Positions 5,744 to 60,596 of a stretch of 64,000 nt of DNA are shown one piece after another. Location of the stretch: NCBI GenBank assembly GCA_000004985.1, contig GG738845.1. One strand, 5' to 3'. The notes under the pieces were generated by a model. It saw only the letters and a program-made list of their open reading frames with translations, searched no databases and was not told where the DNA came from. The number at the start of each line of letters is the position of its first letter. Position 1 is the first letter of the stretch. The position numbers and the translations under genes are program-made. Origin of the DNA: Naegleria gruberi. Lineage: Eukaryota.

Positions 5744-5931
5744 ATTTTTTAAAATTGTGTACAACAATTTACAAAATACATACCACAAAATAAATTTTAA
5801 ACAACAGTTAATTTAATCAATTGTTTTAAAACAATGTATTTTAAAATCTCTCGGAGTTTGCATCCGGAAAACCTCTATTAGAAATCATACCCGAAAAATT
5901 ATTAATATTTTAATTTTTAATTTCGAAAAAA

Positions 5932-14591: not shown

Positions 14592-17500
14592 ATGAATCCA
14601 AATGAATTGTTACAGCTTCGACAAGCCCGACTTGAAGCTTTACGAGAAAACAAGAAGTTTAAGGATGAATGGGCAGAGAACAATGAAAAAATACATAAAA
14701 GAAATATGGACATTAAGAAGGAACGAGAAGCTATTGATATAAAAATTAAAACATCAATGTCTTTGAAAAAAAAAAGACAAGAGGAGGTAAGATGTCTTTA
14801 GATCCGATTATTAATTAATGTAGTTGAGAAAAAAAGTTTCAAGATCCGAAGTGTTTTCAGGCATTGAGGAGTTTGAAAAAAAGTTGGAGCATACCGAAAC
14901 CAATAAAGAACCACAACTGGAAAAAGCATCTGTGCCAGTCAATGCTAATACATCAGTCACCTCAATAGAAAAACTAGAAAAGGAAAGTTCGAACACAAGA
15001 GATGCCAACTCTTATCTTAAAAAGATAAAAGCTAAAAGAAGTGAAGAGCATGCAAGTAGAAAGGAGAAGGAGCAAAGAAGAAGAAAAGTTCTAATGGAAC
15101 AACAACAGGTGTTTAAAGACTTAGAAGAATCCAGAAGAAGAGAGGTACTACTGGAAAAATTAATGAAAAAATCTATGGAGGAAAGACAGTTAGCCAAAGA
15201 GTTAAACGAAATTAAACAATTAAAACAGGTGATGAAGGAAAATAGAGAAATAAGAGAAAAACAATATGCTGAAAGAAGAAGAAAAGATTTTGAAGAGAAG
15301 CAAAGAAGAGAAACTGACCTTATGGAAAAGGAAAAGGAGGAAAGAAAAATCAAAAAGAGGGAGTTAATTGAAAAGCACAAACTATTGTTGGAAGAGAAGT
15401 CGAAACAAAAAAGAGAAAAACATTGGAATATTTGCTTTGAGATTTCTAATCAGATCATTGATTTATCATTTAAAGAAATTGAATATGCTGAAACAACAGA
15501 AGGAGAAAAGCCAACAACAGCAGAGATTCTTGAATGGAGAAAAATGTTCGTAAAGGGTGTCTATGATGATGAATCCACAAAGGAAGATGATGCTGAGCTC
15601 GAACAGTCTAGAGAAATGGAACAAAGTCTTCAAACACATGAAACTGTTGATTTAGATGTGATTGATATGGCAGAATTTAAGGATTATTTATCATGTAAGG
15701 GAGTTTGGAAAGAATCTTCTGATGAAACAGAAAAGGTATCCAACTTTATCAAAGATGTAGTCTCAAAACTTCACGATAAGATTCATCCTCTACCTTCACC
15801 AAAGACTGAACCTGTTCTCAAGAGCAAATATTCATATAATGTAATTTTGACAGGAAAACCAATGAGCGGGAAATCAACTGTTTGCAAAAAAATAGCATCT
15901 CAACTTTCTCTCTTTCACATCAATACAGAGGCTATTTTAAAATCACTCCTGGATGGGGAGAACAAGTCATCAGAGTATTCAGAAATTGCTAATAGAGCTA
16001 GAGCCTGTTTGTTGGATGGTAGGGAAATAGATGAAGAAATAATAGTTGACTTGATATTATTGGAGATAGAAAAAGTTGAAAAAATAGAAAATACAACATA
16101 CCAAGGGTGGTTGATAGAAGGTTATCCATTGACTCTGGAGGCAGCAAAAATTTTAGAGAGAAGAATATCAGGATACACACCATCTGTGGAGGAATTTGTT
16201 GGGACAGATTCTGAAGTCAAGCTGAACTCTGTTATTCTAAATCAAAATAGTTGCAAGAAGTCTGATGAAGAGCTTATGAAGCGTTTAGTACCATTCCAGG
16301 CATTCACATCTGTAATATTTATTGATGTTGAAGATGAATTAGTTTTCGAACGATTGGCAGACCAAAAAGTGGATCCTCTTACTGGAACTGTTTACCACAT
16401 GATTTACTCACCACCTGAGAGTGTGGACATTTCTACAAGACTTGTACCAATTGATGAACATGTAAGATTGGACAAGGCTCAAATTAATTCCCAACTGGTT
16501 TCGTTTGCTAAATCAAAGCGTGAACTAATGAATTGGTATAAGAAATTTGAAAATGTGTTTGAAGCAAAAGAAAACAGTATTGATGATTTGGTAAAAGAAT
16601 GTTCCAATATTATTACTAATCACAAGAGAGAACCATTCCAAAACCACATTCAAACGGAACCAGAAAATTCAGAAATAGAGCAAAGTGGTGGACCTGAAAA
16701 AAAAGAACTCGATGTTGAATTTTGCAAGTTATTCTTGAGTGAGTGGATGTCAATAGAACAAAATTATGTGGGCAGCTGCAAATTGGTGTTTAGGAATTTG
16801 AGAGATTTTAGAAAGTCATTCTTTAAGCAATTTTCAGATCTCAAAGAGCAATTCATGAACTTTTTACTTAGACCAGACGACAAACAAGTGTATATCACTC
16901 AATTCCAGAATGACTTCAACAGATTACCATTAGAACTTAGGAGTAATTCTCAAGTGAAAGATGAGCTTCATAGAAGGTCTGAAGATCTCAAGGAAACTCT
17001 TTGGACTCTATGTGACGAGAAAAAGTTAGAGGCAGAAAAGGAATTAGAAGAGCACCAGAAAGAATCATGGTTAAAAACACACAAAAAAGCTGTCACACGC
17101 CAATACATGCAACTCATTCAATTGGAGCTTAACAGATTTATAGAACAGAGCAAGTTTTTATTTGATTATTTTGTTGAACAATACTTTTCTAACGATTTAA
17201 GCATTGGTGCAACAATTGATCTAAAGAAAACTTTATCTGCCCCAATTCTTTCTGTAAATATTGAGGAGTTATTTGTTGATGTCATCTCAGGGGCTTCAAA
17301 CACCAAATCAACAAACAAAAAGCCAACAAAACCTTCCACGAATTCCAGCACCAGATCAAAGATTGATCAACAAGACCAAGACCTTAACATTGAAGATTGC
17401 TTTGAAAGAGCAAAAACTACATGTGATACTCTAGATCTTTTAATTACACTGCAAAATTACATTGATAAAAACGGGAAAAAGAAAAAGGAGAAAACAAAGG

Positions 17501-18684
17501 ATCCCTATGTTGATATTCCTTTGGAAGTGAGAGAGTGTATGGGGAAAGAGAAGGAGATATTTTTGAGAAGGATTACGCTCATTAAGGAAAGATGTCTAAA
17601 TTCCCTTAAAGACCAACTTGAATCAAAATCTAATCATATTTTCGGCACCATGAGAGATTGGATAGGACAACGTTACAGAACCGATATGGCAAATATTGGT
17701 CTCCTTTCCAGAACCATACAAGATTTTATTGAAAAGGAAACTCCTATAGTTAACGAGATGAGAATAGAAGGTAACAAGTGTATAATAGATGAGAGTGTAC
17801 AGATGACTAACCCGTTACCATTGCACTCTACAAGTAGATCTCAATTGACTACGCAAGAAGCTCCGGAGACAGTGGTTTCCTTCACTAAATCATTCACACC
17901 ACATCAAGTATTTTCATTATACGAAAGGCTACAAGCACCAAGTCCTAGCGGATTTGTTGAGCTAGAAGAGATTACTACTACACTTTTAATTCTTATCGAT
18001 TCAACATTCGGATCAATGGAACTGCCAAACCAATGGTTAGACTATGACAATGACAAGGTTAGAGAAATTACAAAAAGGTTTGATCCATTCAAGAAGGGAT
18101 ATATTAATTGGAGAACATTTTTATTATCTGCTTTATTTACATTTTTCCATCGTCTTCCAACCATTGAGGATATTAGAAAACTCCTTTTAATAGTTCATCC
18201 GCTTGTGTCATCTGGAGAAACCAACTTAAAGCAAGAACAATTTACGGATCTTTTAATCAGATGGATTGGCGAAACAGGTATTTCAAGTAATGAGGAAGAG
18301 GTATCAAAAGTGTTGTTCAACCTTTTCAAACCATTTATTAATGCAACAGTCTCCAACACTGTAAATATTAGAAGCGTTCTCCTTTACCTTTGTTTAGATA
18401 ATCAATCAATTATTGGAACTCTCACAAAGGGATTTGAAGTATTGTCCTATCTGAATGGAACAGAAGGTTTGGATGATAGTGGTGTCTTTGAAATCATGAA
18501 TTTTAATATTGATGTTGAAGAGGACGTAGAAGATTCATTTTCACTTTCTCAAATAAGAGCAGTTTTTGCAGAACTGAAAAAGTCAAAGTCTAGTGTGTCC
18601 CTTGAAGAATTTTCATGTGCCTCCATTGGCAAGACAATGCTAAAAAAAAGTGTACATTTGAAATTGGGTTCTGTATTCTATTAG
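14592..18684 (+). CDS. Coiled-coil protein of about 1351 aa with a central, probably inactive, adenylate kinase domain and a C-terminal EF-hand-like region; SPEF2/CPC1-like flagellar central-pair candidate. Join(14592..14786,14824..18684).
   Basis: Intron gtaaga...aatgtag 14787-14823 joins ORF 14592-14801 to ORF 14824-18684 in phase 0. The AK fold is recognisable: P-loop LTGKPMSGKSTVCKKIA; GWLIEGYPLTLEAA aligns with the AK GFLIDGFPRT motif; LID-like RLADQKVDPLTGTVYHMIYSPPE aligns with [22 protein letters not shown]. The catalytic arginines of the GFPR and LID motifs are replaced (L, Q/K, T). The N-terminus is an E/R/K-rich coiled coil, and DPFKKGYINWRTF is EF-hand-loop-like. Confidence 0.55.
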
Positions 18685-23875: not shown

Positions 23876-26800
23876 ATGATCAACCGACATCATTATGCTT
23901 TCATAGGTGATTCCAGAAAGAATGGAAGTGAGTACAATCCAATACAAATGTTATTTTAATATAGATCTTTAGAACCTTATGAGCCAAAGAAAGGATCAGA
24001 CATAAACTTACCACCATTAGGGGTTAGAAAAGAGAAGGAAAGTGCAATTCTTGAAGCAGATGAATCTTCTCGGAATGATGTTTTTAAATTCAATAGAGAT
24101 GATGTATTTAATTTTGATATTAAGGATATGAGAATATCAAGCACCAGGGAGGTACGTCAAAACCCAAATCTGCTCCAGGCCAATGCTCCCCCACCAAAGA
24201 GAACTAAAGTCACGTTCAAAGGTATGTGAGGAATTGATACTTTAGTACTTAAATACAACCAGATGCGGACGAATCAATGCAAGAGAGTGCTATTGCTGAA
24301 GGAATTTCTGTTGAGGATTGGATGAAGGAAAATGAAAATATTTATGATGTTAAATTTAGGAAGGATGAAAAAACAAAACAACAGGGAAGAAGGTCTCTCA
24401 CCAGACCAGAGTCACAATCATCGTTGGATTCTAGTACATTAAAGGAAGGAAACACTAAACTACCTTATTTGAAGGATGTATTCATGAAGGAACGGGCTCC
24501 ATCAAAGCAATTAGTTCATTATTTGGATATTATTGGAGGAGAAAAACAAGTGAATACAAAAAAAATACTTAAAGTGGCTCCAGATGACGAGGAAGAAATA
24601 GCAAAGTTAAAAACTGGTGATGATGCTGTTGCCTTTTTCTCGAAAGCAGGAAAAAGTAGTAGGTATTATTTAAACTATTTGGATAACTTTGATTTTTTAA
24701 AGCTGCTGTCAAGTTTGTATATTTAAATAGAGCAGATTCAAATGGAGTTGATTACCGACCATATGATCTAGTTGTAGTTTCTAAAAGTGACACTAACCCA
24801 GAATATTTTACCATGTCTTCGACAGGTGTTGTACATATTTGCCCAGGTCAACCTACTGAGTACATGTCCCTCTCTGAATGGATGAAAGAATCAACAATGT
24901 TTAACGTTCTAAGAAGAATTAGATTTTTCAAGTACTATCTTGTTCATAAGTGCTTTAGACTCTGGTATCAAAGTAAGTTGACAACCTTAGTCATTCAATT
25001 ATCTAACGTATTTATCCAGATGCAAGATATCTTAAATATAGTAAGAAGAGAATGGATTTGGCAAGAAATTTCTTCCTTGCCAAGAAAACTTTCTCTTCTT
25101 CTGTCATGAAGATTCACAAACTTTCACACGACTTGCAATATACTCCAATTATGGACTTGAGAGATAAAGAAAATTCAAATGAGCCATCAGTAACTATTGA
25201 ACAGTTCCATGAGGCTCAAAAAGAATTGAGATCAAAATCATCTAAAACCTTTGACGAAATTATTGAGAAAATGGAGGAAATTTTGGTACAACTTTGTGAG
25301 GATGTTACTTCTAGGTCAAGAGTTCCAGATATGAATGCTTCTGAAAATATTGAAGCCTATCTCAGTGGTAAAATACCTACTCTTGAAGCTGAGGATGATT
25401 TCACAGCTAAAAAATCCAAATCTATGGTTGAGGCCCAAGAGGAAGAAGAAAAGAGACAGAGAGCCCTTAAAAAAGCAAGAGAAGAGGCGGATATGCTTGG
25501 TAATTTCATTAGAGTTTCCGACTATATGGCTGTAGAATCTTTGGTAACTTTATCAAAGAAGATTCTCGACAAATTCAAGGTTACTCTCCAAGAAACCAAG
25601 TCAATACTTTTCCTTGTAAACTTACTTTTCAAATCCGATGGTTCTGACATTGTTTTTGAACCATCTGAGGGTGCAATAATGCATGTTCTTCAATCCAACT
25701 CTGATGAAATTGTAACAACTGTCAGTCAAGTTCCAAGACTTTTATACATGCGTAAATTCAAAGTTTATTTTGATAATCTGGATAAATTCAAGATGGAAGA
25801 ACATTTAAGACAACTTCATGTTGGAAAAGTATTGCAGAGAGATGAGGTATTTAACTCAATCAAGTCTCAAATAGAAATGATGTTACACAATGATTTCTTG
25901 AAGGCGTTAGAATATGGAAAGGATTTCGAAGGATTGAAACATTGGTTCAAGTTTGGAAAAGAATGGGATGATAAGTATGCAGAAAAGAGACACACTGTCC
26001 AAGAATTTACTGAAAAAATTAAGCATGTCAATGATGCTCTCCTTGAGTTGAAGAGAATGAACTTTGTGCAAGAAAAAGGAATTCTTTTTATTGACAGCAA
26101 ACAGTTAAGAAATACTTTGCAACCAATTATGGAGAGTATTTACGAGCAAATTAAACTTTCTATAAGTGTTACATCCCGAGAAATGTGTCTAGAACTTAAT
26201 AAGAAGTTCATTGAGAGAGTAAGAATCATGAAGGAAGAGCCAACCAAGCTGAAGGACTTTGCCAAGTTCATAGATAACCACAATAAGATCAGAAAGGAAA
26301 CTCGTCAACTCATGATAGCGGCTGATGAAGTTGAAAAGATGAATGAACTTGCTGCAAAGAACAAGGTTGAAATGGACAGAGCAGACCAAGTTGCTTTGGA
26401 ATCATTGAAAGAAATTAAGGATGAGTTTTTGCAAGTATTCAAAAAGGCAGAACTCTACAAGGAGAATAATATGGCTTCAAAGAAAAGCGAGTTGGAAGAA
26501 AATGTTCAAAAGGTTAGTGATGACCTTTTGGACATGATGACAGTGCTCAGAAATCCTCCATTCATTACAGCTGATGCTGACCCAGTTGATGTTTTGGAAA
26601 GACTTTCTAGACTTGGTGAGGAGATTGCCCAATTTAAAGAAAAAACAGAAATCTACAAAGAGTACCAAATTCTACTTGAGGCACCAGTTAAGGAATGGAC
26701 CAATTTAACAGGCGCTGAAACTCAATTCAATGTTAGAAGTCAAATTTGGAAGGCTATAGATGAATTTTCAAAGAAGTCTGACCTTTGGGATACCACTGAC

Positions 26801-27712
26801 ATCCAAAAACAAGATATTAGTGACATTGAGCAAGAGGTTGAAAAATATTATCAACTTGGAATTGAAATGGCCAAATTTGGAGAGGATGATGTTGTAAAGT
26901 TGTTGAAGAAAACTGTGCAGGTTTGGAAAGATAATTTACCAATAATTTTAATGATTGGTAATAAGGACTTGAAGCCTCATCACTGGGAACAAATATTCAA
27001 AGGTATGAATAAGGAATCTGCCAAAGGAGCTTCCTATACACTTAGACAATTGGGTACTCTTGGTATTTTTATGTACAAAGATTTGATAACAGACGTTTCA
27101 AAAGCAGCAACAGGAGAAGCTCAATTATTTAAAAGCTTGGAAGTTATCGCTCAAACCTGGAGAGAAACTGATTTTGATTTCAAAGCTCTTCCACATAGAA
27201 AAGATTTTTACATATTGAATCAAACTGATAATATTCAAATGCTCTTGGATACTCATAAGAGAACCCTCAGAGAAATGTTGGATTCAAAATATGTTTCTGT
27301 AATTAGAACTAGAGTTGAGGATTGGATAAAAAAGTTGGAAAATGTAACTGTAATATTCCAAGAGTGGCTTTCTTGCCAGAGAAGACTTTTATCTTTGGAA
27401 TACATTCTCACATCTGATCTCATCAAGAAAGAGAATCCAGAAGATGTTGCCAAATACATTTCTGTCAGTTCAGAATTCAAAGATTTAATAAGCAAAACAA
27501 GTCTTAATAGAAATGTGCTGGTAGCTACTCATGAGGAAGGAATTTTAGAAACATTTGGTCGTTGGAATATGGCTTTTGATGAAATTGAGAGGAACGTAAA
27601 AACCTCAGAGGAGGGAGCTGCTGCTCTTGCTGAAGAAAGCGAGGACGACCAAGATGTTTCCTCTGAATCTGATTTGGATGAGCATGCCTACGATGAAGAG
27701 GATGAGTATTAA
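23876..27712 (+). CDS. Protein of about 1214 aa resembling the N-terminal tail region (DHC_N1) of dynein heavy chains, with no AAA+ motor and an acidic C-terminus; 5 exons: join(23876..23928,23965..24221,24263..24662,24731..24972,25020..27712).
   Basis: Introns start gtgagt, gtatgt, gtatta, gtaagt. Every phase checks out and the total of 3645 nt is divisible by 3. Exons 4-5 encode EYFTMSSTGVVHICPGQPTEYMSLSEWMKESTMFNVLRRIRFFKYYLVHKCFRLWYQ, which has the pattern seen at the start of dynein heavy-chain tail domains (P..EY..L.EW..E...F..L..I.FF..Y...K.F..W). The downstream 880 aa are coiled-coil-rich and end in AEESEDDQDVSSESDLDEHAYDEEDEY. The stop at 27710-27712 abuts the Hsp110 3' end, so no motor exons can follow. 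Confidence 0.5.
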
Positions 27713-27732
27713 AAAATTCAAACAAAAACTAT

Positions 27733-30147
27733 TTATTGTGTTTCGTCCATCTTTTTGTTTTGTTCTGGTTCTTGTTTTTGTTCAGTTGGCTTTTCTTCCT
27801 TCTTTGGTTCTTCTTTTGGTTTTGGCTTTGTGACAATTGGAGTGGCAACCTTTCTTAAATCCTTCTTACGATTTTCAATGAAAGCACATGTTAAAATTGG
27901 GTCAGAAGACTTGGCAACCTTATCTTGTTGAGCAAGTTGTTCATTCAACCAAGTATTTGTTTCGGATACCTTATCAGCAACTTTTTGTTTTTCTTCATTG
28001 GTAATATGGTTGTATTGTTCAGTATTGGCATTATCTACAAAGGTTTGGAATTCCTTGATTGTTTCTTGTAATTGTTTAATGCCTTCTGGTCTAGCTTCGA
28101 ATTCCTTCAACCTATTTTCAACTCTATCACCAACCTTCTTGAGTTCAGCAAGTTTTTCTTGATAGACAGTCTTTGTTGTGTTTTCACCATCACCATATAA
28201 CCATGATTCAGTATCATCCAATGTGAGGATAAAGTTATCTCTATCTTGATCATTAATAAATTCATAGAGATCACCACCTTCATAAAGTCTTTCCTTCATA
28301 TTATAACAGAAACTTTCAACGTTATTCTTTGCTTCAGCAGTAGTACGAACGTCCTTGTCACGATTTCTCATTGATTGTTCAACATTCAAGTATTGATTGA
28401 AAAGCTCTGTAGTGATACCTGGAACTGTGGTGAGGACCTTCAAGTTGTGTTTAATAGTCTTCTTCTTCTTGACAAGTCTTGTTTTTGGTTTTTCATCCTT
28501 CTTTTCTTCAGCAGGCTTTTCTTGAGATACTTCTTCAGTTGTATCCATCTTGTTTTGTTCCAATTCTTCTTTTGGAATTGGTTCTTCTTCTTCAACTTCA
28601 ATTTCTTCAGAGGCAGTAGCTTCTTGAACTTCAACTAAACCCAACATGTTGTGTCTCATCTTGATCTTAATCTTCAATGGTTCATTTCTTTGTGGAATGT
28701 CAGTAATTGTGAATTTACCCATAATACTACTAGTACCAGCTGGAAGAAGGGAAGGATCAGAGTAGACTGTAAACAAATCAAATGTCTTAGACTTGTTAAA
28801 AGTAAGCATCTTGGATGAAGGAGTACCTTCAAATTGTTTGAAAAGTGTTGATTGTTTCAATGAAGAGAGAACAGATGCTTCATCATCATCGACCATTTTG
28901 TCATCACTTTCTGGATTGGCAACCCATCCCAAATTGACACCATGATAAATTGAATCAATAACATTAAATTCACGAGCAAGAGTAAACTTTGGACTAATCA
29001 TGGCAGCTTGAATAGCAGCTCCCTTAGCAACACTTTCAGTTGTGTTTAAAGTGGATTGTACTTCCTTTCCGATAATCTTTGCCAATGTTTCTCTAATAAC
29101 TGGAATATATGAAGCACCACCCAACAATTCAACAGTTGTCAATTGTTCAGCTGTAATACCAGCTGATTCCAAAGCTCTTTTAACTGGAGCTTCAAATCTA
29201 GATAAGACTGGTTGAACCAATTGAATGTATTCGTCTCTCTTAATTTGGAATTGAATATCCTTTTCATTCATCAAACATTCAATTCTCAAATTAGAAACTG
29301 GATTAGAACTCAAGAATTTCTTCAATTTTTCACATTCTCTTGCCAAACGAATAACTGCCTTAGGATTTGTAGTAACATCCATCTTGTATTTGGTCTTGAT
29401 TTCTTCAACGTAGTGGTCATACAAAGCCTTTTCAAGTGCATAAGCTCCCAAGTTTGGATCACTAGCACAAGATAAGACACGAAGTTGTGACTTTTTGAAT
29501 TCAATAATGTAGACGGAAGTATCAAGGTGACCAACATCAACAAAGGCAATGTTTTGAGCTTCCTCAGGGAAATCCTTATAGATGCCATAACCCAAAGCAG
29601 CAGCAGTGACATCGTGCATAACACGAATAACATTCAAACCAGCAATTTCAGCTGCTTTGACCACATCACGTCTTTGAATTTCATTAAAGTAGCAAGGTAC
29701 GGTAATAACACAATCGGATTCACGGAATCCAACAGAGCTTTCAACATCATCTACAATTTTACCAAACAGCATACCTAATAACTGAACTGGGCTAAGAAGT
29801 TTGGATTCAGCATCGTTATCATGGAGCTTATAACCATCAATCTTGAATAGAATTTCATCATTTGGGCCTTGGAAAATTGGAACAGAAATATTAGCATGGA
29901 GAACTTCTGGTGTAAGTTGACTATATTTTAATCCAATGAATCGTTTAATAAGTGAAATGGTTCTTTGATAGTGACTGATTTGTGCACCCATACCACTTTC
30001 TCCAATCAATCTTTCATTTTCCGAGAAGGAAACATAGACTGGTGTATATCTTCGGGAGAATTCATTGGTAACAATATCAATAGAACCTTTCTTTGCAATA
30101 CCAACTACACAATTTTGAGAACCCAAATCAATTCCGAGAACTGGCAT
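27733..30147 (-). CDS. HSP110: Hsp110/SSE-type Hsp70-superfamily chaperone, 804 aa.
   Basis: The N-terminus MPVLGIDLGSQNCVVGIAKKGSIDIVTNEFSRRYTPVYVSF matches Hsp110/Sse1, not canonical Hsp70. It has an actin-fold NBD (DLGGGTFD-like region), an extended acidic insertion in the SBD (EEIEVEEEEPIPKEELEQNK) and a K/E-rich tail, as is typical for Hsp110. Confidence 0.85.
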   Translation of the reverse strand: MPVLGIDLGSQNCVVGIAKKGSIDIVTNEFSRRYTPVYVSFSENERLIGESGMGAQISHYQRTISLIKRFIGLKYSQLTPEVLHANISVPIFQGPNDEILFKIDGYKLHDNDAESKLLSPVQLLGMLFGKIVDDVESSVGFRESDCVITVPCYFNEIQRRDVVKAAEIAGLNVIRVMHDVTAAALGYGIYKDFPEEAQNIAFVDVGHLDTSVYIIEFKKSQLRVLSCASDPNLGAYALEKALYDHYVEEIKTKYKMDVTTNPKAVIRLARECEKLKKFLSSNPVSNLRIECLMNEKDIQFQIKRDEYIQLVQPVLSRFEAPVKRALESAGITAEQLTTVELLGGASYIPVIRETLAKIIGKEVQSTLNTTESVAKGAAIQAAMISPKFTLAREFNVIDSIYHGVNLGWVANPESDDKMVDDDEASVLSSLKQSTLFKQFEGTPSSKMLTFNKSKTFDLFTVYSDPSLLPAGTSSIMGKFTITDIPQRNEPLKIKIKMRHNMLGLVEVQEATASEEIEVEEEEPIPKEELEQNKMDTTEEVSQEKPAEEKKDEKPKTRLVKKKKTIKHNLKVLTTVPGITTELFNQYLNVEQSMRNRDKDVRTTAEAKNNVESFCYNMKERLYEGGDLYEFINDQDRDNFILTLDDTESWLYGDGENTTKTVYQEKLAELKKVGDRVENRLKEFEARPEGIKQLQETIKEFQTFVDNANTEQYNHITNEEKQKVADKVSETNTWLNEQLAQQDKVAKSSDPILTCAFIENRKKDLRKVATPIVTKPKPKEEPKKEEKPTEQKQEPEQNKKMDETQ

Positions 30148-33168: not shown

Positions 33169-36100
33169 TTATTGCTGGTTGTTAGGAATTACTGAGCCAA
33201 TATCGTCATCATCATTGAATTCATCATCTTCTTCCATAGTCTTTCTTCTACAAACCATACCTTCCTCACTTTGCTTGAAGCCTTTTTTGTATTCCTTTAA
33301 AGTTTCAGACACTGGTTTGGAGCTCTTAAACTTCTTGTGACCATCAACATTAATATCTTTAGACATGAGTGGTTTCATTGCTGTTTGAAGACTGTTAAAT
33401 AATTGAGGATAAATTAATTCTTGATTAGCTAAGAGTGTCTTGACACGAGCTCTTTCTTTTGGTATTTCAAAACAGGCTGGGCAATTTTCATTAATGACAG
33501 GCAAACCACTTTCCCATGCGAACTTTTTGGTTTCTGTCTCTCTCACATAGATAAGTGGACGAATAACACGTAAATCTCCAACATCAATAGTATAGTGAGC
33601 CTTCATAGTTCTCATAAATCCGTTGTGGAAAATAGACATGATAAAACTTTCAGCTAAATCATCAAGATGTTGACCAAGTACAAGTACATTATAACCTTCT
33701 CTTCTGGCAGTATTGTACAAAATACCTCTTTTCATTCTGGCGCACCAAGCACAAATTGAAGAAGCATCACATTCTTTTGCGCCTTCAATAACAGATTGGG
33801 ATTCATAGAAATATGGAACTCCTAATTGTTTACAATAGTTAATTAATGGGGAAGGGTCATAGCTTGCAGTTTGAGGATCAACTGTACAAGCACCAAATTC
33901 AAAATTGATACCCAAGTTGCTATATTGCAATGCATGTAAAACATGGAGTAATGTTAGAGAATCTTTACCACCAGACAAACCAAGTAATAATCTATCACCT
34001 TCTTTAATCATATCAAACTCACGAATGGCTTTCTTGACAGGTGCCATAATTGACTTGGCATCAACTCTTGGCCACATCTTGTAGTGATTTTTCAAAATTT
34101 CTCTTCGTTTCTTTTCATCATCAACATCTCCCGTAATCTTATCGAAAACCTTTCCATCCAATTTTGGTCTCTTTGGAATATATTTCTTGGAAGCCTCTTG
34201 TTGTTTCCAGTCACCTTCAATTAAATCCTCTTCAATGCATGGCATGTCTAGGATAGAAGATTCAACCAAAGGAGTTACAGAAATAGGTTCAACAATAGGT
34301 GGTTGTGAATCATTTTCAACATTTTCAACAGGTATGATTTCAGAATTAAGTGTTGATTGTATCAAAGAGCTTGTCAATTTGGTATTATTACTTTCATTTG
34401 AGACAAGATTAGAAACATTAAAACCAGTCCATGGATTAAGAATTGATTGTTTGTAAATTTTTGTAATATCACCACCTTGTAATTCTTCAACAATTTGCTT
34501 TGGAAAAACAAACCATCTCCATTTTTCAGCATGATCAATTTGTTCATCCTTTGTTGGGAGATTTTCCTTATTAATAATACTATTTTCTTTCAGCAGGTTT
34601 GTGTTTGGTTTGTTGAGAAGAAGTAAATCTTGATCTACAATTCTATACTTTGGATTTGAGAATTCCTTTACAGCTTGTTCAGCAGACTCTTCAGCTTGTT
34701 TCAGATATGTATCATATTCTTTCTTTGGTGAACTAATCTTATATCCAATTTCTTGTCTATATTCAAGTTTACCATTTTTGTAAGAAATATTTTGTAACCA
34801 TCTTCTTGTTGGAAATTTTCTGTTATTATTATGAATCCATTCGCCTGATTCTGGATAAAAGTAATAATATGGCAAAAACTTGTAGCCATTTTCAGCAACA
34901 AATTTTACGGATTTAACAATATATTGGAATGTATCTTCATCCATAAAATAATTAAAGTTCAAACGAACAAAACCAGGTCTCAAAAACTCATAATCATCAT
35001 CTGATAAAAGTACATTTTCCAAACTCTTAGCATCGTTATATTTGAGACCAAAGAGGAAATGAGAAAATGGACCAGCACATGCACAACCAGATCTAGTTTG
35101 GATGCCAAACAAATCATTCAATAAAATTGAAACAAATGTAGATGGAAGGAAGGAGTTATGGTGTCTTACTAGGAAGCTGAATATTGGTAAACGAGGAGTG
35201 TTCTCATTGTGGCCAAGAATTACCAAATTTCTTGTTGACTTGAAGGATTCAAAAGCACGTTCAGTGAAATTAGTCTCAATTTGTGAAATCAATTGAGTGC
35301 CAACAGCCTGACGAAGTTGGAAAATAAGACCACATCTGACTGATCCTAAAATTTCAGGAGTACCACCTTCTTCTCTTTCATAAGACTTTTTAACATAATG
35401 ATGGTCTCTGTCAGTAACAAAGAATACAGTTCCACCGCCTGGGTTTTCAGGAATCTTATTTTTAAAGAGATGTTTTTTAGCAACAAGTACTCCTGGTGTA
35501 CCTGGACCTCCAATGAATTTGTGAGGACTAAACACAAGAGCATCCTTATAACAGAGAGCTCTTTCCTCGAGAGGAATCTCCTCTGCAACCTTACCAAAAG
35601 TGTGATCTAAATTCTCTGTAGAAACACCTCTTGGATTCATATCTATTTTAACATAAGGAGCTGCACAAGCATAATCCCAAACTACATATCCACCATATTT
35701 GTGAATTAAAATTGAGATCTTGTTAACATTTGGTTCAAGAACACCAGTCACATTTGATGCTGCAGAGAAAACACCAATAAGCATTCTCTTTCCGTTATTA
35801 TAATATTTTAACTTGTTTTCCAAATCCTCAAGATCAGCAACTTCATTTCTAGTTGGGCTAGAATCATTTGATGGTAAATAGAGTTTGATTGGAACAATGT
35901 GACAGCAGGATTCTCTCCAAGGAAGAATATTTGAATGGTGTTCAGCTGGACCAACAAAAACTACAGGTTGTACCTCATCAATTTCTTCACTTGATTCAAT
36001 ACTATAATAATTGTCATAAAATCCATTATTTGATTGCAAATTTTGTAAATTAGATGATAATTTCTTTTTGCTTTGTTGTTGAGAAGAAATGGTAAATTCT

Positions 36101-36746
36101 CTTTCCCATTTTCTTCTTTCCATTTTCATACTAGTTTCACCACCTCTTTCTAAACCCAAAAGATGTACTAATTTGTTAACAGCACTTGTTGAACCACTTC
36201 CACTAAATATTAAAACATCCTTTTTACCACAATTCAATGCATTTCTAATAATATAACGTGATTCATGTCTAAAAAGAGTACTTTGAAGACCAGTAATTGA
36301 ACTTGTTGTGTGTGTATTGGCATACATGGTCATTACTTGTTTCTTCATAAAATCTTCTAAAAAGTTGAGAGATCTACCTGAGGCAGTGTAATCACAATAG
36401 GTTATTTTTCTATAACCAAAAGGTGATTTAAAAACTTCATCATCTCCAATAATTGAATCATGAATAGTTTGTATGAGAGCAGACTTTTCCTTTACTAGAG
36501 ATTCATTATCTAAAATTTAATCAGATAAATTATAATGACTAGATTCAATAGATAATACATACCTGTTAAACTAGCTTCCTCTTCAGTATCGTTTGTTGCA
36601 CTTCTACCACCTGCTTGTTCGTGGTAAGAAACACGGAAGAAGGCTCTTGAACGTTTGGCAATAACAGATTCCTCTTCTTCTAAACCAACATGTTCACTAA
36701 CTGTCGGGATGTTATGGTTGCTATCACCACTATTATCTGTAATCAT
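33169..36746 (-). CDS. Fusion protein of about 1174 aa: an N-terminal class-V aminotransferase/cysteine-desulfurase-like (NifS/SufS/MOCOS-N-like) PLP domain joined to a C-terminal TtcA/TtuA-family PP-loop Fe-S tRNA thiolase domain. Join(36563..36746,33169..36509) on the minus strand.
   Basis: Exon 1 (ORF 36510-36746) ends at a gtatgt donor. A 53-nt intron (plus 36510-36562, acceptor ttttag) joins in frame to ...ITYCDYTASGRSLNFLEDFMKKQVMTMYANTHTTSS, which is like the YLD.A..T.....I..F...V...YGNPHS start of NifS-like enzymes. The PLP-lysine motif is ALVFSPHKFIGGPGTPGVLV. The C-terminal domain has the PP-loop LLLGLSGGKDSLTLLHVL; CAWCARMKRGILY matching TtcA CSLCSRLRRGILY; LGQHLDDLAESFIMS matching GHHRDD; VIRPLIYVRETE matching VIRPLAYCRE; and a second Cys pair NCPACFEIP. 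Confidence 0.7.
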
Positions 36747-43955: not shown

Positions 43956-46900
43956 ATGGGCAAAGACGATGATGAGGTTACCAAGTTTCATGGTTATGAC
44001 TATAGATCCAACTCCAATGTTGTACTAACAACAAAGAGAAAGAAAAGATCACAAAATCAAGAACCATCAGGTGAACCAGAAACGTTGTCCGGTAAGGATT
44101 TACACAGAATGGGTGATCGTGTTATACACTCAAAACCTCCTGCCTCTGCTAAAAAGAAGAAAAAACAGGAGCAAAAATTATCATTTAAAAAAAAACAATC
44201 TATTCTGGACATTAATACTTCTCAAGAGCATTATAATCCAAAAACAGACGAAACTAGGACAGTTTATGAATCAATCTTGGACAAGGTACAACATTATTTA
44301 GGTGATGTTGACCATGATACATTAAGAGGAGCTGTAGATGAAATATTAACAATAATGCATGATGAAAATCAATCTGATCACCAAAAGCAAGAGGAAGTTT
44401 CACAAATATTATCATCAATACCAAGTGATGAGTTTGCAAAACTTTATCAATTATGCAAGCGTACCACTGATTTCGTAGTTAGTGATGTTGTAGGAGATAA
44501 TTATCAAGGAATTGATGAAGGAATAGCTTTAGTTTCATCTGATGAAGAAGAGGATGATGAAACAGAGGGATTGAACAATCAAACTGTTGGATATGTTGTT
44601 TCGTCTGACTCTGAGTCTGATATTTCTGACTCTGAACAACCTACAATAGTGGAATCTTCAAAAATGGAAGATGAAGAAGAAGAAGATTTGGATATTACCA
44701 CTATTGATTCTCTTTGGCTCCAAAAAGAGTTATCTAAGTATTATTCTGATTCTATTGAATGCAAAAAATTATCTAATGGGATTTTAGATATATTATCAAG
44801 CTCTGAAGATGAGCACGACATTGAAAATCAATTGGTTCAGATTTTAGACTATGATAAAATTGATATGGTACAAAAATTGATGAGAAATAGATTAAAAATT
44901 ATTTATTGCACAAGATTACACCAAGCAGCAACGAAAGAAGAAAAGGAAAAGATTGAACAAGAAATGATGACTAATGATAGTTTGGTAAAAATTTTAGAAA
45001 AGTTGAAAGGTACCAAAATTTCATCAGGAAATACTGGTACTTCTAGGGTAGAGAGAGAAAATTATCAATGGAAGGGAGAGAGAGTTATAAATTTGGAAAA
45101 TTTAACTTTTGAAGAGGGTAGTCATTTAATGAGTAATAGAGATTTTACTTTACCAAGTACTGCTTCTACAGCCCAATTCAAAGGTTATGAACAAATTACC
45201 ATTCCATACTCTTCTCAAGATAAACCGCGAGTAGATAATTTAATTGAAATCAAGTCATTACCAGAATGGTCTCACAAAGCATTCCCAAATATGGTTAAGC
45301 TCAATGCTGTACAGAGCATTATTTTCAAATCGGCATTTTATTCCCCTGAAAATTTGTTAATTTGTGCTCCAACTGGTGCTGGTAAGACTAATGTTGCTGT
45401 TTTGACAATGCTTCATGAAATTGGCTTACATATGGATGAAAGTTTTGACAACTTGATAGATTTGGATTTCAAGATGATATATATTGCTCCTATGAAAGCC
45501 TTAGTACAAGAAGTGGTCGGTAACTTAAGCGAGAGATTAAAACCATATAATATTGTTGTACAGGAATTAACAGGTGACAGAAATATGACAAAACAGCAAA
45601 TTGATGAGACTCAAATTATAGTCACAACGCCAGAAAAATGGGATATTGTTACTAGAAAATCTGGAGACAGGACATATGTTGAAAAAGTCAAGTTAATTAT
45701 TATTGATGAAATTCATCTTCTTCATGATGAAAGAGGTCCTGTACTAGAGTCTATTGTTGCTCGTACAATTAGACAACAAGAATCAACAAGACAAAACATT
45801 AGACTAGTAGGATTGAGTGCTACCCTTCCTAATTATAAGGATGTGGCAACATTTTTACGTGTGAAACCAGATAATTTATTTTATTTTGATAGTAGTTTTA
45901 GACCATGTCCTTTGGATCAATATTATATTGGTGTAAATGAAAAGAAGCCATTTAAAAGACACAAGTTAATGAACGAGATTGTGTATAATAAGGTTGTTGA
46001 AATAGCAGGGAAACACCAAATTATTGTGTTTGTACATTCCAGAAAGGATACATACAAAACAGCAAAGGCATTGCGTGATATGGCAATAGAAAATGATACA
46101 ATTGGTAAATTTGTGAAACAAGGTTCAGCTACTTCAGAAATACTTAAAGAGGCATCTCAGAAAGATGCTAATGGAGCAGAGTTAAAGGAATTGCTTTCTT
46201 TTGGGGTTGGCATCCATCACGCAGGTATGACAAGAAATGATCGTACTCTTGTTGAAGATTTATTTGATGATGAACGTTTACAAGTTCTGGTCAGTACGGC
46301 CACTTTAGCTTGGGGTGTTAATCTTCCAGCCAGACGAGTTATTATTAAAGGAACTCAAGTATACAGTCCTGAAAAAGGTGATTGGACAGAACTGAGTGCT
46401 CTGGATGTCATGCAAATGATAGGTCGTGCGGGAAGATTTCCAAGAGATAGTAGGGGTGAAGGTTTAATTGTAACAACCCAATCTCATTTACAGTATTATC
46501 TTGCTTTGCTTAATCAACAATTACCTATTGAAAGTCAGTTTATCAAATCGCTACCAGATAATCTTAACGCTGAGGTTGTTCTTGGAACAGTTCAAAACAT
46601 TGATGAGGCTATCAACTGGCTTGGTTATACCTATCTTTATGTTAGAATGTTGAGAAATCCGCTTCTTTATGGTATTACTAAAGAAGATGTGGAACATGAT
46701 AAGAATCTCTATCATTGGAGAAGAGATTTAGTATATTCTGCTGCATTAATTTTAGAAAAGAACGGACTTATCAAGTTCGATAAAAGATCAGGAGATTTCC
46801 AACCAACAGATTTGGGAAGAGTTGCAAGTCATTACTATGTTACTCACAAGTCAATTGCAACTTTTAATAATAATTTGAAACCAAACTTAAGCGATATTGA

Positions 46901-49900
46901 ATTATTCAGACTATTTTCCCTTTCTGATGAATTTTCTCAAATGACAGTCCGTCAAGAAGAAAAATTAGAATTATCAAAACTTATTCACAGTGTACCTATT
47001 CCTATTAAGGAATCTGCTGATGATCCATCCGCAAAGGTGAATGTGTTACTACAAGCCTACATTTCTAGGTTACGTTTGAATGGGTTTGCATTAATTGCTG
47101 ATATGACCTATATTACTCAGAGTGCTGCTCGTATTGCTAGAGCTTTATTTGAAATTATTATGCATAGAGGATGGGCTCAATTGGCATCAAAGGTTCTTAA
47201 TCTAGCTAAAATGATAGAACACAAGATGTGGTACACACAAACACCACTTAGACAATTCCCAAAGATTGAACAAACCATTCTTAAACAACTAGAGGGAAAG
47301 AACACTCTTTGGGAACGTCTTTATGACTATACTCCTGCAGAACTTGGCAGACTAGTTCACCATAATCAACGTGGAAAAGATTTATACAAGTATATCCATC
47401 AATTCCCTCGTCTTGATCTTACAGCAAGTGTCCAACCAATTACTCCAAGTACTTTAAGAATAGAGTTGACCATTTCTCCTGATTTCCAATATAACAAGAG
47501 TATTCATGGTGCAGCACAAACTTTTTGGATATTTGTAGAGGATGTAGATGGAGAAGTCATTTTACACCATGAATCATTTGTTTTAAAGCAAAAATATGCT
47601 GAAGAGAATCATTTTGTCAGTTTCACCGTTCCAATTTATGAACCGCTTCCTCCTCACTATTTTATCAAAGTAATTTCAGATAGATGGCTGCACTCTGAGC
47701 AAACACTTCCAATATCTTTTAGACATTTAATCTTACCACAAAAAGCTCCTCAAACAACAGAGTTATTAGATTTACCTCCTCTTGAAATATCTGCTCTCAA
47801 GAATGGTAAATATGAACAACTTTTATCAAATATGGGAGTATACAAATTTAATCCTATTCAAACACAAGTTTTTAGATCGGTTTATCACAGCGAGGATAGT
47901 GTTTTAATTGCTGCACCTGGTGGAAGCGGAAAGTCCTTGTGTGGAGTTCTTGCAATAATGAAAATGTTTAATGACCATGAAAATTCAAAGTGTGTGTACA
48001 TTGCTGCTATCCCATCTGTTGCCAATAAGAGAGAAAAGAAATGGATTTCTCTTTTTGAACAAATTGGCAAAAGAGTTGTAAATTTAACAGGAAATTTAGC
48101 CAAAGATATGATTTTATTCGAGCAAGGTGATATTATTATTTCCACTCCCGAACAATTTGATATGTTTTCAAGAAAGTGGAAGGCAAGAAAATCCTTATCC
48201 AATGTAAAATTGGTTGTGGCTGATGAGCTTCATATGATTGGTGGAGAAGTTGGTCCTATTATTGAAGTTGTTATTTCTAGGATTAGGTATATGTCTTCTC
48301 AATTAGAAACCAATATTAGAATTGTAGGACTAAGTGCTTCAATTTTAAATGCAAAGGATGTTGCAGACTGGATTGGTACCAAGAAGGAATGTTGCTTTAA
48401 TTTCCATCCAAGATATAGATCCATACCATTGGAAATCAATATTCAAGGATTTACTCAAAGCTCTTACAATGCCAGACAGGTAGCTATGAGTAAACCTGCG
48501 TATAAGGTAATTAAGCAAAAATCAGGAGGAGAACAAACAATTATATTTACATCTTCTCCAAAACAGGCATCTTTTATCTCATCTGATCTAATTGATCACT
48601 TGAGTAATGACATTAATTCCAAAATATTTGTTGGTGATAGTTCAGCAATTAATCATGCTATTGGTTCAGTTGACAGCTCTGCATTGAAAGAAGTACTAAC
48701 GTTTGGTATTGCTTTCTATCATGAAACTTTAACCAAAAATGACAAGCAAATTGTTGAGGAATTGTATTCTACAGGTGTTATCAAGGTGTTGGTAGTAACA
48801 CATCAAATGTGTTGGGGAATGGAGCAAAAATCAAAACTTGTAATCATTATGGGAACCGAATACTATAATGGCAAAGAACATAGATATACCGATTACTCTA
48901 TTATAGATATGGTACAAATGATGAGTAGGTCTGGTAGAATTGCAGTTGATAAGGACTCGACTTGTTACATTTTCTGTGCAGCCTCAAGAAAAGACTATCT
49001 GTTAAAATTCCTATATGAACCATTCCCAGTAGAATCCCATTTGGATCACTTCCTCTATGATCCTCTAAATGCTGAAATTTCTTCTAAAATTATTGAAAAT
49101 AAGCAAGGTGCTGTTGACTATTTGACTTGGACCTTTCTCTATAGAAGAATTCGTAAAAATCCTAATTATTACAATTTAAGTGGAACAACCAAGATACATT
49201 TATCAGACTATTTGTCCGAGTTGGTGGAATCTTCATTGGAAGAGTTGCAAAAATGTAACTGTATACTTGTTGAAGATGATGAGATAACAGCTATGAACTT
49301 GGGTACAATTGCTGCTCACTATTACGTAAAACATTCCACAATAGAAATTTACAGCACCACAATCAATAGTAAGACCAAGTTGAGAGGTTTATTAGAAGTT
49401 CTGGGTTATTCCACTGAATTTGAGCAATTACCAATTAGACAAAAGGAGAATCACATACTCAGAAAGCTTTTCACACACGCTCCGCTAAAGGTTGAAAAGC
49501 CAAACTATACCCAAGTGTCTACAAAGGTAAATTTGATACTTCAATCCCATTTTTCAAGAACAAGGCTCACACCAGCTATGGAAATGGATAAGAAACAAAT
49601 TCTTCTTCAGTCTGTAAAACTTTTAAGAGCTATGGTTGACGTTATCGGTAATGAAGGTTTTTTAACACCAGCCCTTGCAGCCATGGAAATGTCTCAAATG
49701 ATCACACAAGCATTATGGGATAAGGATCCATTTTTAATGCAATTACCTCATTTTACTAAAGAAATTTGTTCTAGATGTGAACAAGGTGGAATAATTACTA
49801 TTTTTGACTTGATTAACATGGAAGATGATGAAAGAAATCAATTACTTGGATTTGGTGAACAGCAAATGATAGATGTCGCTAAAGCACTCAATAGGTATCC

Positions 49901-60546: not shown

Positions 60547-60596
60547 NNNNNNNNNNNNNNNNNNNNNNNNNNNNNNNNNNNNNNNNNNNNNNNNNN
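60547..60596. other. Assembly gap (50 N) interrupting the 3' end of the CFAP57-like gene.
   Basis: A run of exactly 50 n characters. The ORF-track translation shows X residues here. Confidence 0.95.

What the first reader, a model, noticed from the sequence alone, without database searches (positions are those of the whole stretch)
23876..27712. Dynein-heavy-chain tail-like protein without a motor domain
A five-exon, 1214-aa gene encodes a region with the sequence pattern of the start of the dynein heavy-chain N-terminal (DHC_N1) domain (…EYFTMSSTGVVHICPGQPTEYMSLSEWMKESTMFNVLRRIRFFKYYLVHKCFRLWYQ…). It is followed by a further 880 aa of helical/coiled-coil sequence and terminates in an acidic tail. 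The stop codon abuts the convergent Hsp110 gene, so no AAA+ motor exons can follow. A stand-alone dynein tail could be a scaffold or regulator that competes for intermediate/light chains. Alternatively it is a degenerate remnant of a heavy-chain gene.
Basis: partly seen in the sequence, partly recalled or inferred. Interest (0 to 1): 0.6.

Follow-up and report, generated by a model that had tools for sequence, protein, structure and literature searches.

The report
Motor-less inner-arm dynein heavy chain
This Naegleria gene encodes the tail and first three-quarters of the linker of a flagellar inner-arm dynein heavy chain but no motor; the same cut-off version is kept under selection in distant relatives, one of which also has the complete gene, so it is probably a working "headless" dynein subunit and not a broken or mis-assembled gene.

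Summary
The gene is real. It is a true dynein heavy chain (HC) relative, but not through DHC_N1, which gives no hit. Residues ~200-1184 are colinear with the first ~1130 residues of ~4100-aa single-headed inner-arm HCs of the DNAH6/IAD-5 class (E 1e-120). Pfam DHC_N2 (the linker) matches only profile positions 4-301 of 403. A 37-aa acidic tail and a stop follow, 20 nt from the convergent Hsp110 gene.

An independent metagenome contig (99.9% identical) confirms that junction. No motor-coding DNA lies anywhere in the 64 kb.

The same end point occurs in N. fowleri, another Naegleria, Acrasis kona, a Pharyngomonas transcript and further contigs. Selection is purifying (pN 0.10, pS 0.80).

Acrasis also carries an intact unsplit full-length gene of this class. 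All tail-only proteins keep the conserved tail positions but have lost about a third of the conserved linker positions.

Best reading (0.6): a conserved motor-less paralogue that docks like an inner-arm tail. Main rival (0.2): the N-terminal half of a split gene. I could not search Naegleria genomes for a motor partner or a full-length copy.

The parts
23876..23927 (+). Exon 1 with the proposed ATG (aa 1-17). This is the least certain part of the model.
   Evidence: ORF and GT donor read from the sequence. The N. fowleri model starts further downstream. No transcript evidence.
23973..24221 (+). Exon 2 (aa 18-100), the variable N-terminal region.
   Evidence: Frame continuity across a 45-nt GT..AG intron. 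Aligns to the N. fowleri P0001 N-terminus.
24263..24658 (+). Exon 3 (aa 101-232). The conserved heavy-chain tail begins at about 24565 (VAPDDEEEIAKLKTGDDAVAFF).
   Evidence: tblastn of Acrasis full-length and P0013 starts here. PDB alignments start at aa ~198-208.
24703..24972 (+). Exon 4 (aa 233-322).
   Evidence: Junctions are seamless against N. fowleri. The motif aligns to residues ~190-260 of solved inner-arm heavy chains.
25020..27712 (+). Exon 5 (aa 323-1219 plus stop): the rest of the tail, the partial linker and the acidic tail.
   Evidence: 901-codon open frame. 100% identical 886-aa ORF in an independent metagenome contig.
24565..26713 (+). Inner-arm (DNAH6/IAD-5 class) heavy-chain tail, aa ~201-887 (interrupted by introns 3 and 4).
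   Evidence: Colinear with 9e5c_6c, 8glv_Mm and 9y6s_7C at E 1e-109 to 1e-120. 57% identical to the tail of the Acrasis full-length gene. 92% of class-conserved positions retained.
26714..27598 (+). Truncated linker, aa 888-1182, matching Pfam DHC_N2 positions 4-301 of 403. It ends inside a long helix, just before the LEDFLETKR-FPRFYF segment of full-length chains.
   Evidence: AlphaFold2 model has pLDDT 86.8 and Foldseek top hits are inner-arm heavy chains. Only 63% of conserved linker positions are retained, against 95-100% in full-length chains.
27599..27712 (+). Non-homologous acidic C-terminal tail (aa 1183-1219) and TAA stop (27710-27712).
   Evidence: 17 D/E and no K/R in the last 35 residues. 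Acidic tails of different sequence occur in N. fowleri, the L002 species and Acrasis. Predicted disordered.
27733..30147 (-). Convergent Hsp70-family (Hsp110-like) gene that bounds the 3' end (context).
   Evidence: PF00012 at 2.8e-116. The same arrangement is present in the independent contig L007.
23135..23602 (-). Upstream divergent neighbour, a bacterial-type ribosomal protein L17, presumably mitochondrial (context, syntenic).
   Evidence: PF01196 at 8.9e-29. An L17 gene also lies upstream of the orthologue in L002.

Best explanation
The gene encodes a naturally motor-less ('tail-only') paralogue of the single-headed inner-arm dynein heavy chain of the DNAH6 / IAD-5 (DHC7) class, in a Naegleria species.

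Shown:
- It keeps the complete tail and linker positions 4-301, then ends in a short acidic disordered tail.
- It is translated from its own gene, with unrelated genes downstream.
- It is under purifying selection.
- The same architecture, ending at the same linker position, is found across Heterolobosea.
- In Acrasis kona it sits in the same genome as an intact, unsplit full-length gene of the class.

Inferred:
- The tail keeps the positions conserved in working heavy chains, so the protein probably still binds the tail's usual partners. By established knowledge these are actin plus centrin or p28.
- It probably still docks at an inner-arm site on the doublet, as engineered motor-less heavy-chain fragments do in Chlamydomonas.
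- It has no AAA ring, stalk or microtubule-binding domain, so it cannot generate force.
- It would act as a headless structural occupant or adaptor of an inner-arm position, or as a cytoplasmic competitor for light chains, tuning how many force-generating heads of this class the axoneme carries.
- The retained linker stub has lost the residues that normally face the AAA ring, as expected if no ring is attached.
For: - Dynein identity and class. phmmer against PDB gives aa 198-1184 colinear with residues 128-1129 of 9e5c_6c (7.7e-120) and with 8glv_Mm (7.7e-118). DNAH6 scores about 1e-58, against 1e-22 or weaker for DNAH7/3/12/1. The predicted fold matches the same chains.
- Truncation. DHC_N2 covers only positions 4-301 of 403. 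tblastn of two full-length chains against the window stops at 27598, with no motor DNA elsewhere in 64 kb.
- Not an assembly artefact. Contig L007 from an unrelated metagenome is 99.88% identical over 23908-28902.
- Not a pseudogene. pN is 0.10 and pS is 0.80 against the orthologue in L002, and every 150-codon block has pN far below pS.
- Conserved end point. N. fowleri P0001, L002/P0003, Acrasis P0004, Pharyngomonas P0005 and P0015 all stop within 0-5 residues of the same position. Different, unrelated genes follow in four genomic contexts.
- Coexistence with a full-length gene. Acrasis contig L006 carries a 3514-codon uninterrupted ORF with complete DHC_N2, AAA_6/7/8/9 and MT domains, running through the break point.
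- Released linker constraint. Over the same profile span, DHC_N2 scores 142-194 bits in tail-only proteins against 242-253 bits in full-length chains cut at the same residue. At positions conserved in 13 full-length-type chains, tail-only proteins keep 80-94% in the tail but only 61-69% in the linker, where full-length chains keep 95-100%.
- No conserved splice donor at the break.
- Experimental precedent. Motor-less 1-alpha heavy-chain fragments assemble at the correct axonemal site (PMC2156140).
- A manual census of dynein genes reports split genes in Giardia, Spironucleus and Basidiomycota but none in Heterolobosea (PMC5100056).
Against: - I could not show that Naegleria itself has a separate full-length gene of this class. 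The protein index used only returned targets up to about 1.75 times the query length. No Naegleria genome could be searched.
- In neighbour-joining trees the Naegleria protein groups with the Acrasis full-length tail (57% identity) and not with the Acrasis tail-only protein (49.5%), with bootstrap 51-86%. That is what a split orthologue would show. Under my reading it needs unequal rates, gene conversion or repeated origin.
- Localisation, partners and expression are all untested.
- The Pharyngomonas case rests on one transcript that ends only a few residues after the break, so intron retention cannot be fully excluded there. Its linker does show the same degeneration.
Confidence: 0.6

Rival explanations
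1. Split dynein gene. In Naegleria the IAD-5 heavy chain would be encoded in two pieces. This gene would supply the tail and the N-terminal linker. A second gene elsewhere would supply the rest of the linker and the AAA+ motor. The two polypeptides would be translated separately and reassembled non-covalently, as in Ustilago Dyn1/Dyn2, Schizophyllum Dhc1/Dhc2 or the Giardia outer-arm chain.
For: - Precedents exist, including a split that leaves an 1180-aa N-terminal protein in Agaricomycetes (PMC5100056; PMC4540427).
- The Naegleria protein is closer to the Acrasis full-length tail than to the Acrasis tail-only protein.
- No second tail of this class from Naegleria appeared in any search.
- The acidic tail could be an added interaction handle.
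Against: - Acrasis has the same truncated gene alongside an unsplit full-length gene.
- The linker segment that would have to rebuild a working linker has lost about 35-40% of otherwise near-invariant positions, including the WMYLE-IF-DI-QLP motif.
- The linker part evolves faster than the tail part, the reverse of working heavy chains.
- The break lies inside a long helix, not at a domain boundary.
- A manual survey reported no split in Heterolobosea.
- No partner gene was found, although my searches were technically blind to it.
Confidence: 0.2
2. Recurrent, independent truncations. The ancestral full-length gene would have produced a short isoform by stopping at an intron at this position. 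Different heterolobosean lineages would then have fixed that isoform as a separate gene at different times. On this reading the Naegleria gene is a relatively recent derivative of its own full-length gene, not an orthologue of the Acrasis tail-only gene. The function would be as in the best explanation.
For: - It explains both the identical break point and the tree in which Naegleria groups with Acrasis full-length.
- ORFs from another lineage run out of frame exactly at YL^ETKR, which suggests an intron at this position (P0023, P0063).
- The Pharyngomonas transcript ends a few residues past the break with ...FLV-stop.
Against: - The full-length genes examined (Acrasis L006, P0013/L003) have no intron there.
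- Naegleria and Acrasis tail-only proteins share the exact break residue, an acidic tail and derived substitutions (E1131D, F1135Y) that the Acrasis full-length gene lacks. These favour a single origin.
Confidence: 0.12
3. Decaying remnant of a heavy-chain gene, or a mis-assembly that hides downstream motor exons.
For: Truncation inside a domain and degraded linker motifs.
Against: - The ORF is intact in at least six independent sequences.
- pN 0.10 against pS 0.80.
- The linker stub is still predicted to fold with pLDDT above 90.
- An independent assembly is identical across the junction.
- Four different downstream neighbours occur in four taxa.
Confidence: 0.03

Closest known systems
Single-headed inner-arm dynein heavy chains of the IAD-5 / DHC7 class (human DNAH6; the Chlamydomonas chains 8glv_Mm/Me/Fm; T. 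brucei 9e5c_6c)
   Same: The tail and the first three-quarters of the linker are colinear and homologous (E to 1e-120), and the predicted fold is the same. Tail positions conserved across the class are retained.
   Different: It lacks the last quarter of the linker, all six AAA+ modules, the stalk and microtubule-binding domain and the C-terminal domain. It adds an acidic tail. Ring-facing linker motifs are degraded.
Split cytoplasmic dynein genes of Basidiomycota (Ustilago Dyn1/Dyn2; Schizophyllum Dhc1 1180 aa / Dhc2) and split outer-arm genes of Giardia and Spironucleus
   Same: A stand-alone gene encodes about 1200 N-terminal residues of a heavy chain, ends with its own stop and has unrelated neighbours.
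   Different: No complementary motor gene has been identified. In Acrasis an unsplit gene coexists with the truncated one. The sequence next to the break is degenerate instead of conserved. The class is an axonemal inner-arm dynein. There is no conserved splice donor for trans-splicing.
Engineered motor-less heavy-chain fragments in Chlamydomonas (truncated 1-alpha Dhc transgenes)
   Same: These are N-terminal heavy-chain fragments without a motor. Experiments show that they assemble at the correct axonemal position with their partner subunits (PMC2156140). This is the functional analogy I rely on.
   Different: Those are laboratory constructs of a two-headed I1 dynein subunit. This is a natural, conserved gene of a single-headed class, and its localisation is untested.
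Drosophila myosin rod protein (a headless product of the myosin heavy-chain gene) - recalled from my own knowledge, not tested here
   Same: A natural motor-protein heavy chain lacks its motor domain and co-assembles into the same structure as the full motor.
   Different: It belongs to a different motor superfamily. It arises from an internal promoter of the same gene, not from a separate paralogous gene.

Membership tests
Dynein heavy chain, single-headed inner-arm class IAD-5/DHC7 (DNAH6-like) | N-terminal tail homologous and colinear with class members | tested here: met
   phmmer against PDB gives 7.7e-120 to 9e5c_6c and 7.7e-118 to 8glv_Mm. DNAH6 at about 1e-58 is far better than other human inner-arm classes.
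Dynein heavy chain, single-headed inner-arm class IAD-5/DHC7 (DNAH6-like) | Complete linker (Pfam DHC_N2, 403 positions) | tested here: not met
   Only positions 4-301 are matched. Acrasis full-length matches 3-403.
Dynein heavy chain, single-headed inner-arm class IAD-5/DHC7 (DNAH6-like) | AAA+ ring (AAA1-6), stalk/microtubule-binding domain and C-terminal domain | tested here: not met
   No AAA_6/7/8/9, MT or Dynein_heavy hits. tblastn of full-length chains finds nothing beyond 27598 in 64 kb.
   No hit at E<=1. Full-length Acrasis and P0013 N-termini also lack it, so it does not define this class.
Split dynein heavy-chain gene (Ustilago/Agaricomycete/Giardia type) | N-terminal gene ends inside the heavy chain with its own stop and unrelated flanking genes | tested here: met
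Split dynein heavy-chain gene (Ustilago/Agaricomycete/Giardia type) | A complementary gene that begins where this one ends and encodes the motor | not testable with these tools
   It is not in the window. The protein index did not return targets longer than about 1.75 times the query. The metagenome scan gave only unsplit chains from other lineages. No Naegleria assembly could be searched.
Split dynein heavy-chain gene (Ustilago/Agaricomycete/Giardia type) | No intact unsplit gene of the same class in the same genome | tested here: inconclusive
   Not met in Acrasis kona: L006 has an unsplit 3514-codon ORF next to tail-only P0004. Unknown for Naegleria.
Split dynein heavy-chain gene (Ustilago/Agaricomycete/Giardia type) | Sequence around the break stays as conserved as in unsplit orthologues, because a working linker must be rebuilt | tested here: not met
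   61-69% of conserved linker positions are kept, against 95-100% in full-length chains. DHC_N2 scores 142-194 against 242-253 bits.
Trans-spliced split gene (Giardia type) | Conserved 5' splice site at the break | tested here: not met
   GTAAAA at the break in the window is ATCAAG in L002. The acidic extension is retained as coding sequence.
Pseudogene / gene remnant | Disrupted frame or neutral evolution | tested here: not met
   Intact ORFs in all taxa. pN 0.10 against pS 0.80.

The most novel reading that the evidence does not exclude
Naegleria builds a two-piece inner-arm dynein whose heavy chain is broken inside the linker, the lever that transmits the power stroke. Tail and motor would be separate polypeptides joined only by non-covalent packing of a divided helix, perhaps helped by the acidic tail. 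Force would then cross a non-covalent joint in the lever itself. No known split dynein does this; the known splits lie before the motor, in AAA1 or in AAA4.
Probability: 0.15. Interest if true: 0.8.

Novelty: new variant of a known kind. Interest (0 to 1): 0.55.

Why it matters
- Axonemal dynein heavy chains are treated as all-or-none motors, and censuses count them by motor domain. A conserved, selected, motor-less heavy chain would be missed by such counts.
- It would mean that some inner-arm positions, or some light-chain pools, are handled by a headless subunit.
[quoted passage not shown] A docking-competent headless chain is one way to fill or regulate a position.
- Naegleria makes flagella on demand within about an hour (my own knowledge), so localisation and loss-of-function tests are feasible.
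- If the rival split-gene reading is right, it would be the first split inner-arm dynein, and the first split inside the linker.

Tried and rejected
- DHC_N1 membership: no hit. Rejected as a criterion, because full-length class members lack it too.
- Motor exons hidden in the window or in a nested or long intron: Pfam on all large ORFs and tblastn of two full-length chains found none.
- Mis-assembly at 27712-27733: rejected by the independent contig L007.
- Continuation in the ORFs that follow the orthologues in L002 and L004: their translations are unrelated to dynein.
- Trans-splicing: the GT at the break is not conserved.
- Finding the motor half or a Naegleria full-length gene failed on every route:
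  - Two homologous-protein searches with junction-plus-motor queries (P0013, Acrasis L006) returned only unsplit fragments from other lineages. They also revealed that targets longer than about 1.75 times the query are not returned.
  - The JGI metagenome scan gave 80 unsplit chains, and none had a heterolobosean-like tail.
  - The AlphaFold database library was not available.
- Literature: no description of a split or motor-less heavy chain in Heterolobosea was found. The supplements of PMC5100056 are not held. The Acrasis genome paper does not mention flagella.
- Phylogeny: only neighbour-joining was possible, because no maximum-likelihood program is installed. The relationship between tail-only and full-length proteins stayed unresolved.
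- Mapping the break onto the 'hinge helix' of the linker: the review read gives no residue numbers. I can say only that the break lies inside a long predicted helix.
Full report
**1. What is in the sequence**

The window is AT-rich (33-36% GC) eukaryotic DNA with very short introns. Reading the three forward frames gives a five-exon model: 23876-23927, 23973-24221, 24263-24658, 24703-24972 and 25020-27712. The four GT..AG introns are 41-47 nt long. Junctions 3 and 4 are confirmed, because the spliced protein reads without a gap against the Naegleria fowleri orthologue (FFSKAGKSTAVKFVY; RLWYQNARYLKY). Exon 1 and the start codon remain unverified.

The stop codon (27710-27712) lies 20 nt from the end of a convergent 804-aa Hsp70-family ORF. 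The last 35 residues hold 17 D/E and no K/R.

**2. Is it dynein?**

Pfam gives no DHC_N1 hit. It gives DHC_N2, the linker domain, at 5.6e-57 over aa 888-1182, covering only profile positions 4-301 of 403.

Against all PDB chains, aa ~198-1184 align colinearly with residues ~128-1130 of ~4100-4200-aa single-headed inner-arm heavy chains. The scores are 7.7e-120 for T. brucei 9e5c_6c, 7.7e-118 for Chlamydomonas 8glv_Mm and 7.4e-109 for 9y6s_7C. Among mammalian chains DNAH6 is far ahead, at about 1e-58 against 1e-22 or weaker for DNAH7, 3, 12 and 1. The paper read equates the DHC7 subfamily with IAD5. That DNAH6 belongs to this class is my own knowledge.

An AlphaFold2 model of aa 724-1219 is confident (pLDDT 86.8) and all-helical. 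Its best Foldseek matches are the same inner-arm chains, with TM-score 0.76 to 9e5c_6c. Full-length relatives of this class also lack a DHC_N1 hit, so its absence says nothing.

**3. The truncation is real**

tblastn of two full-length relatives against the whole window stops at 27598. It finds no motor-coding DNA anywhere in the 64 kb. Pfam on the large ORFs shows ordinary neighbours: LeuRS, a SPEF2/CPC1-like protein, a DEAD-box helicase, L17, Hsp110 and Brr2.

A contig from an unrelated metagenome assembly (L007) is 99.88% identical over 23908-28902. It spans the stop codon and the start of Hsp110. Mis-assembly is therefore excluded.

**4. The organism, and conservation of the truncated form**

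The closest protein is from Naegleria fowleri (P0001, 1185 aa, 87% identity). It ends at the same residue and also carries an acidic tail. A second Naegleria-like contig (L002/P0003, 84%) has the same end. It shares the upstream L17 gene but has a different downstream gene.

Against L002, synonymous sites are saturated (pS 0.80) while pN is 0.10. Every 150-codon block shows the same contrast. This is strong purifying selection, so the gene is not a remnant.

More distant proteins end within 0-5 residues of the same linker position (alignment):
- Acrasis kona P0004: 1248 aa, intronless, on a 104-kb contig, with unrelated genes on both sides.
- Pharyngomonas kirbyi P0005: a transcript with a complete ORF, from the deepest heterolobosean branch.
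- P0015 on L004.
- An acrasid-like locus, L008, which shares the HlyIII neighbour with Acrasis.
- Probably also P0050 and P0158.

In full-length chains the next residues are LEDFLETKR-FPRFYF. The tails after the break are acidic in Naegleria and Acrasis. They are not acidic in P0015 or Pharyngomonas.

**5. Split gene or motor-less paralogue?**

Split dynein genes are known. Examples are Ustilago Dyn1/Dyn2, the Agaricomycete Dhc1 (1180 aa)/Dhc2 pair, Wallemia, Giardia and Spironucleus (PMC5100056; PMC4540427). I therefore looked for the missing half, and what I found points the other way.

A 381-aa Acrasis protein (P0024) that matched my query at 62% turned out to be a truncated annotation. It covers the start of a 3514-codon uninterrupted ORF that runs off its contig (L006). 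That ORF aligns to the 4123-aa chain P0013 over residues 136-3561 in a single segment. It passes straight through the break point. It has complete DHC_N2, AAA_6, AAA_7, AAA_8, AAA_9 and MT domains. So Acrasis kona has both the tail-only gene and an intact full-length gene of the same class.

Second, the linker stub of all tail-only proteins has drifted from the family pattern.
- Over the same profile span, DHC_N2 scores 142-194 bits in tail-only proteins. Full-length chains cut at the same residue score 242-253 bits.
- I took alignment columns that are at least 85% conserved in 13 full-length-type chains. In the tail, tail-only proteins keep 80-94% of these positions (full-length chains 88-100%). 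In the linker they keep only 61-69% (full-length chains 95-100%).
- The losses cluster in the WMYLE-IF-DI-QLP-E-F-VD motif (aa 1112-1139) and in the last helix.
- Within Naegleria the linker part also evolves two to three times faster than the tail. Between Naegleria and the Acrasis full-length gene, identity is 57% in the tail but 43% in the linker. That is the reverse of the pattern between two full-length chains, 40% and 46%.

A piece that had to rebuild a working lever with a separate motor should not look like this.

Third, the GT at the break in the window is not conserved in L002, and the extension is kept as acidic coding sequence. Giardia-style trans-splicing is therefore unlikely.

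Fourth, a manual census that reports every known split dynein mentions none in Heterolobosea. It calls their inner-arm classes single-copy.

**6. What remains open**

I could not search a Naegleria genome.
- The large protein index returned nothing longer than about 1.75 times the query, so 3-4 thousand-residue chains were invisible.
- The one unrestricted search had been used on the tail.
- The metagenome scan gave 80 unsplit chains from other lineages.

So I do not know whether Naegleria has its own full-length gene of this class. Neighbour-joining trees place the Naegleria protein with the Acrasis full-length tail, not with the Acrasis tail-only protein, at bootstrap 51-86%. That could mean a split orthologue, a later origin from the full-length gene, gene conversion or unequal rates.

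Against repeated origin, Naegleria and Acrasis tail-only proteins share three features that the Acrasis full-length gene lacks: the exact break residue, an acidic tail and two derived substitutions (E1131D, F1135Y). ORFs from another lineage run out of frame exactly at YL^ETKR. This hints at an intron at this spot in some organisms, which might have seeded a short isoform. That is speculation.

**7. Most likely mechanism**

The following are shown: a translated, selected heavy chain with an intact conserved tail, a folded but derived linker stub, no motor and a disordered acidic end.

The following are inferred. The tail still binds the class's usual partners; by established knowledge these are actin with centrin or p28. 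It still docks at an inner-arm site. Motor-less fragments of the Chlamydomonas 1-alpha heavy chain do exactly that in vivo (PMC2156140). Without a ring and stalk the protein cannot produce force. It would therefore act as a headless occupant or adaptor of an inner-arm position, or as a cytoplasmic competitor for light chains.

I put this reading at about 0.6, the split-gene reading at about 0.2, repeated derivation from a short isoform at about 0.12, and remnant or artefact at about 0.03.

**8. Novelty and score**

I found no description of a natural motor-less axonemal heavy-chain gene, or of a split one in Heterolobosea, in the literature I could search. The search was limited. The protein is clearly a member of a known superfamily with a new, conserved architecture, so I rate it a new variant of a known kind. 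Interest is moderate (0.55). It would be higher if the partner question were settled either way.

Noticed in passing
L006 10001-20543 (Acrasis kona GCA_026419775.2, contig JAOPGA020000769.1): A 3514-codon uninterrupted full-length inner-arm dynein ORF is annotated only as a 381-aa protein (P0024) and runs off the contig end. Acrasis has no known flagellate stage (my own recollection), and its genome paper does not mention flagella. Even so, this axonemal motor gene looks intact.
   Followed up: partly
window 14824-18684 (+): A 1286-aa ORF has SPEF2_D5, adenylate kinase and SPEF2_C domains. This is a CPC1/SPEF2-like central-pair protein, so a second flagellar gene lies 5 kb upstream of the dynein gene.
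   Followed up: no
window 33169-36348 (-): A single 1059-aa ORF combines a class-V aminotransferase (cysteine-desulfurase-like) domain with a PP-loop ATP_bind_3 domain. This may be a fusion of two sulfur-transfer/tRNA-thiolation enzymes.
   Followed up: no
window 3167-5788 (-) and 50319-53687 (-): Two long ORFs (873 and 1122 aa) have no Pfam hit at E<=1e-5.
   Followed up: no
window 60547-60596 and 61881-64000: There are runs of N: a 50-base gap, and the last 2120 bases are all N. The usable window ends at 61880.
   Followed up: yes
P0023 and P0063 (Logan contigs, unknown organism): ORFs of unsplit-type heavy chains leave the reading frame exactly after ...SLEEYL, before ETKR. This suggests an intron at the very position where the heterolobosean tail-only proteins end.
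   Followed up: no
L003 10001-22372 (Logan SRR23962323): P0013, the closest full-length relative of the tail (37-41% identity), is an intronless 12.4-kb ORF in a 28% GC genome of unknown identity. Knowing the organism would help to date the origin of the tail-only form.
   Followed up: partly
The search for homologous proteins outputs: No hit was longer than about 1.75 times the query: maximum 1433 aa for an 825-aa query and 1570 aa for a 900-aa query. P0013 was not recovered by its own fragment. Long proteins are effectively invisible to short queries.
   Followed up: partly
window 43956-50282 (+): An intronless 2108-aa Brr2/SNRNP200 spliceosomal helicase gene. It is ordinary and is noted only as context.
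   Followed up: no
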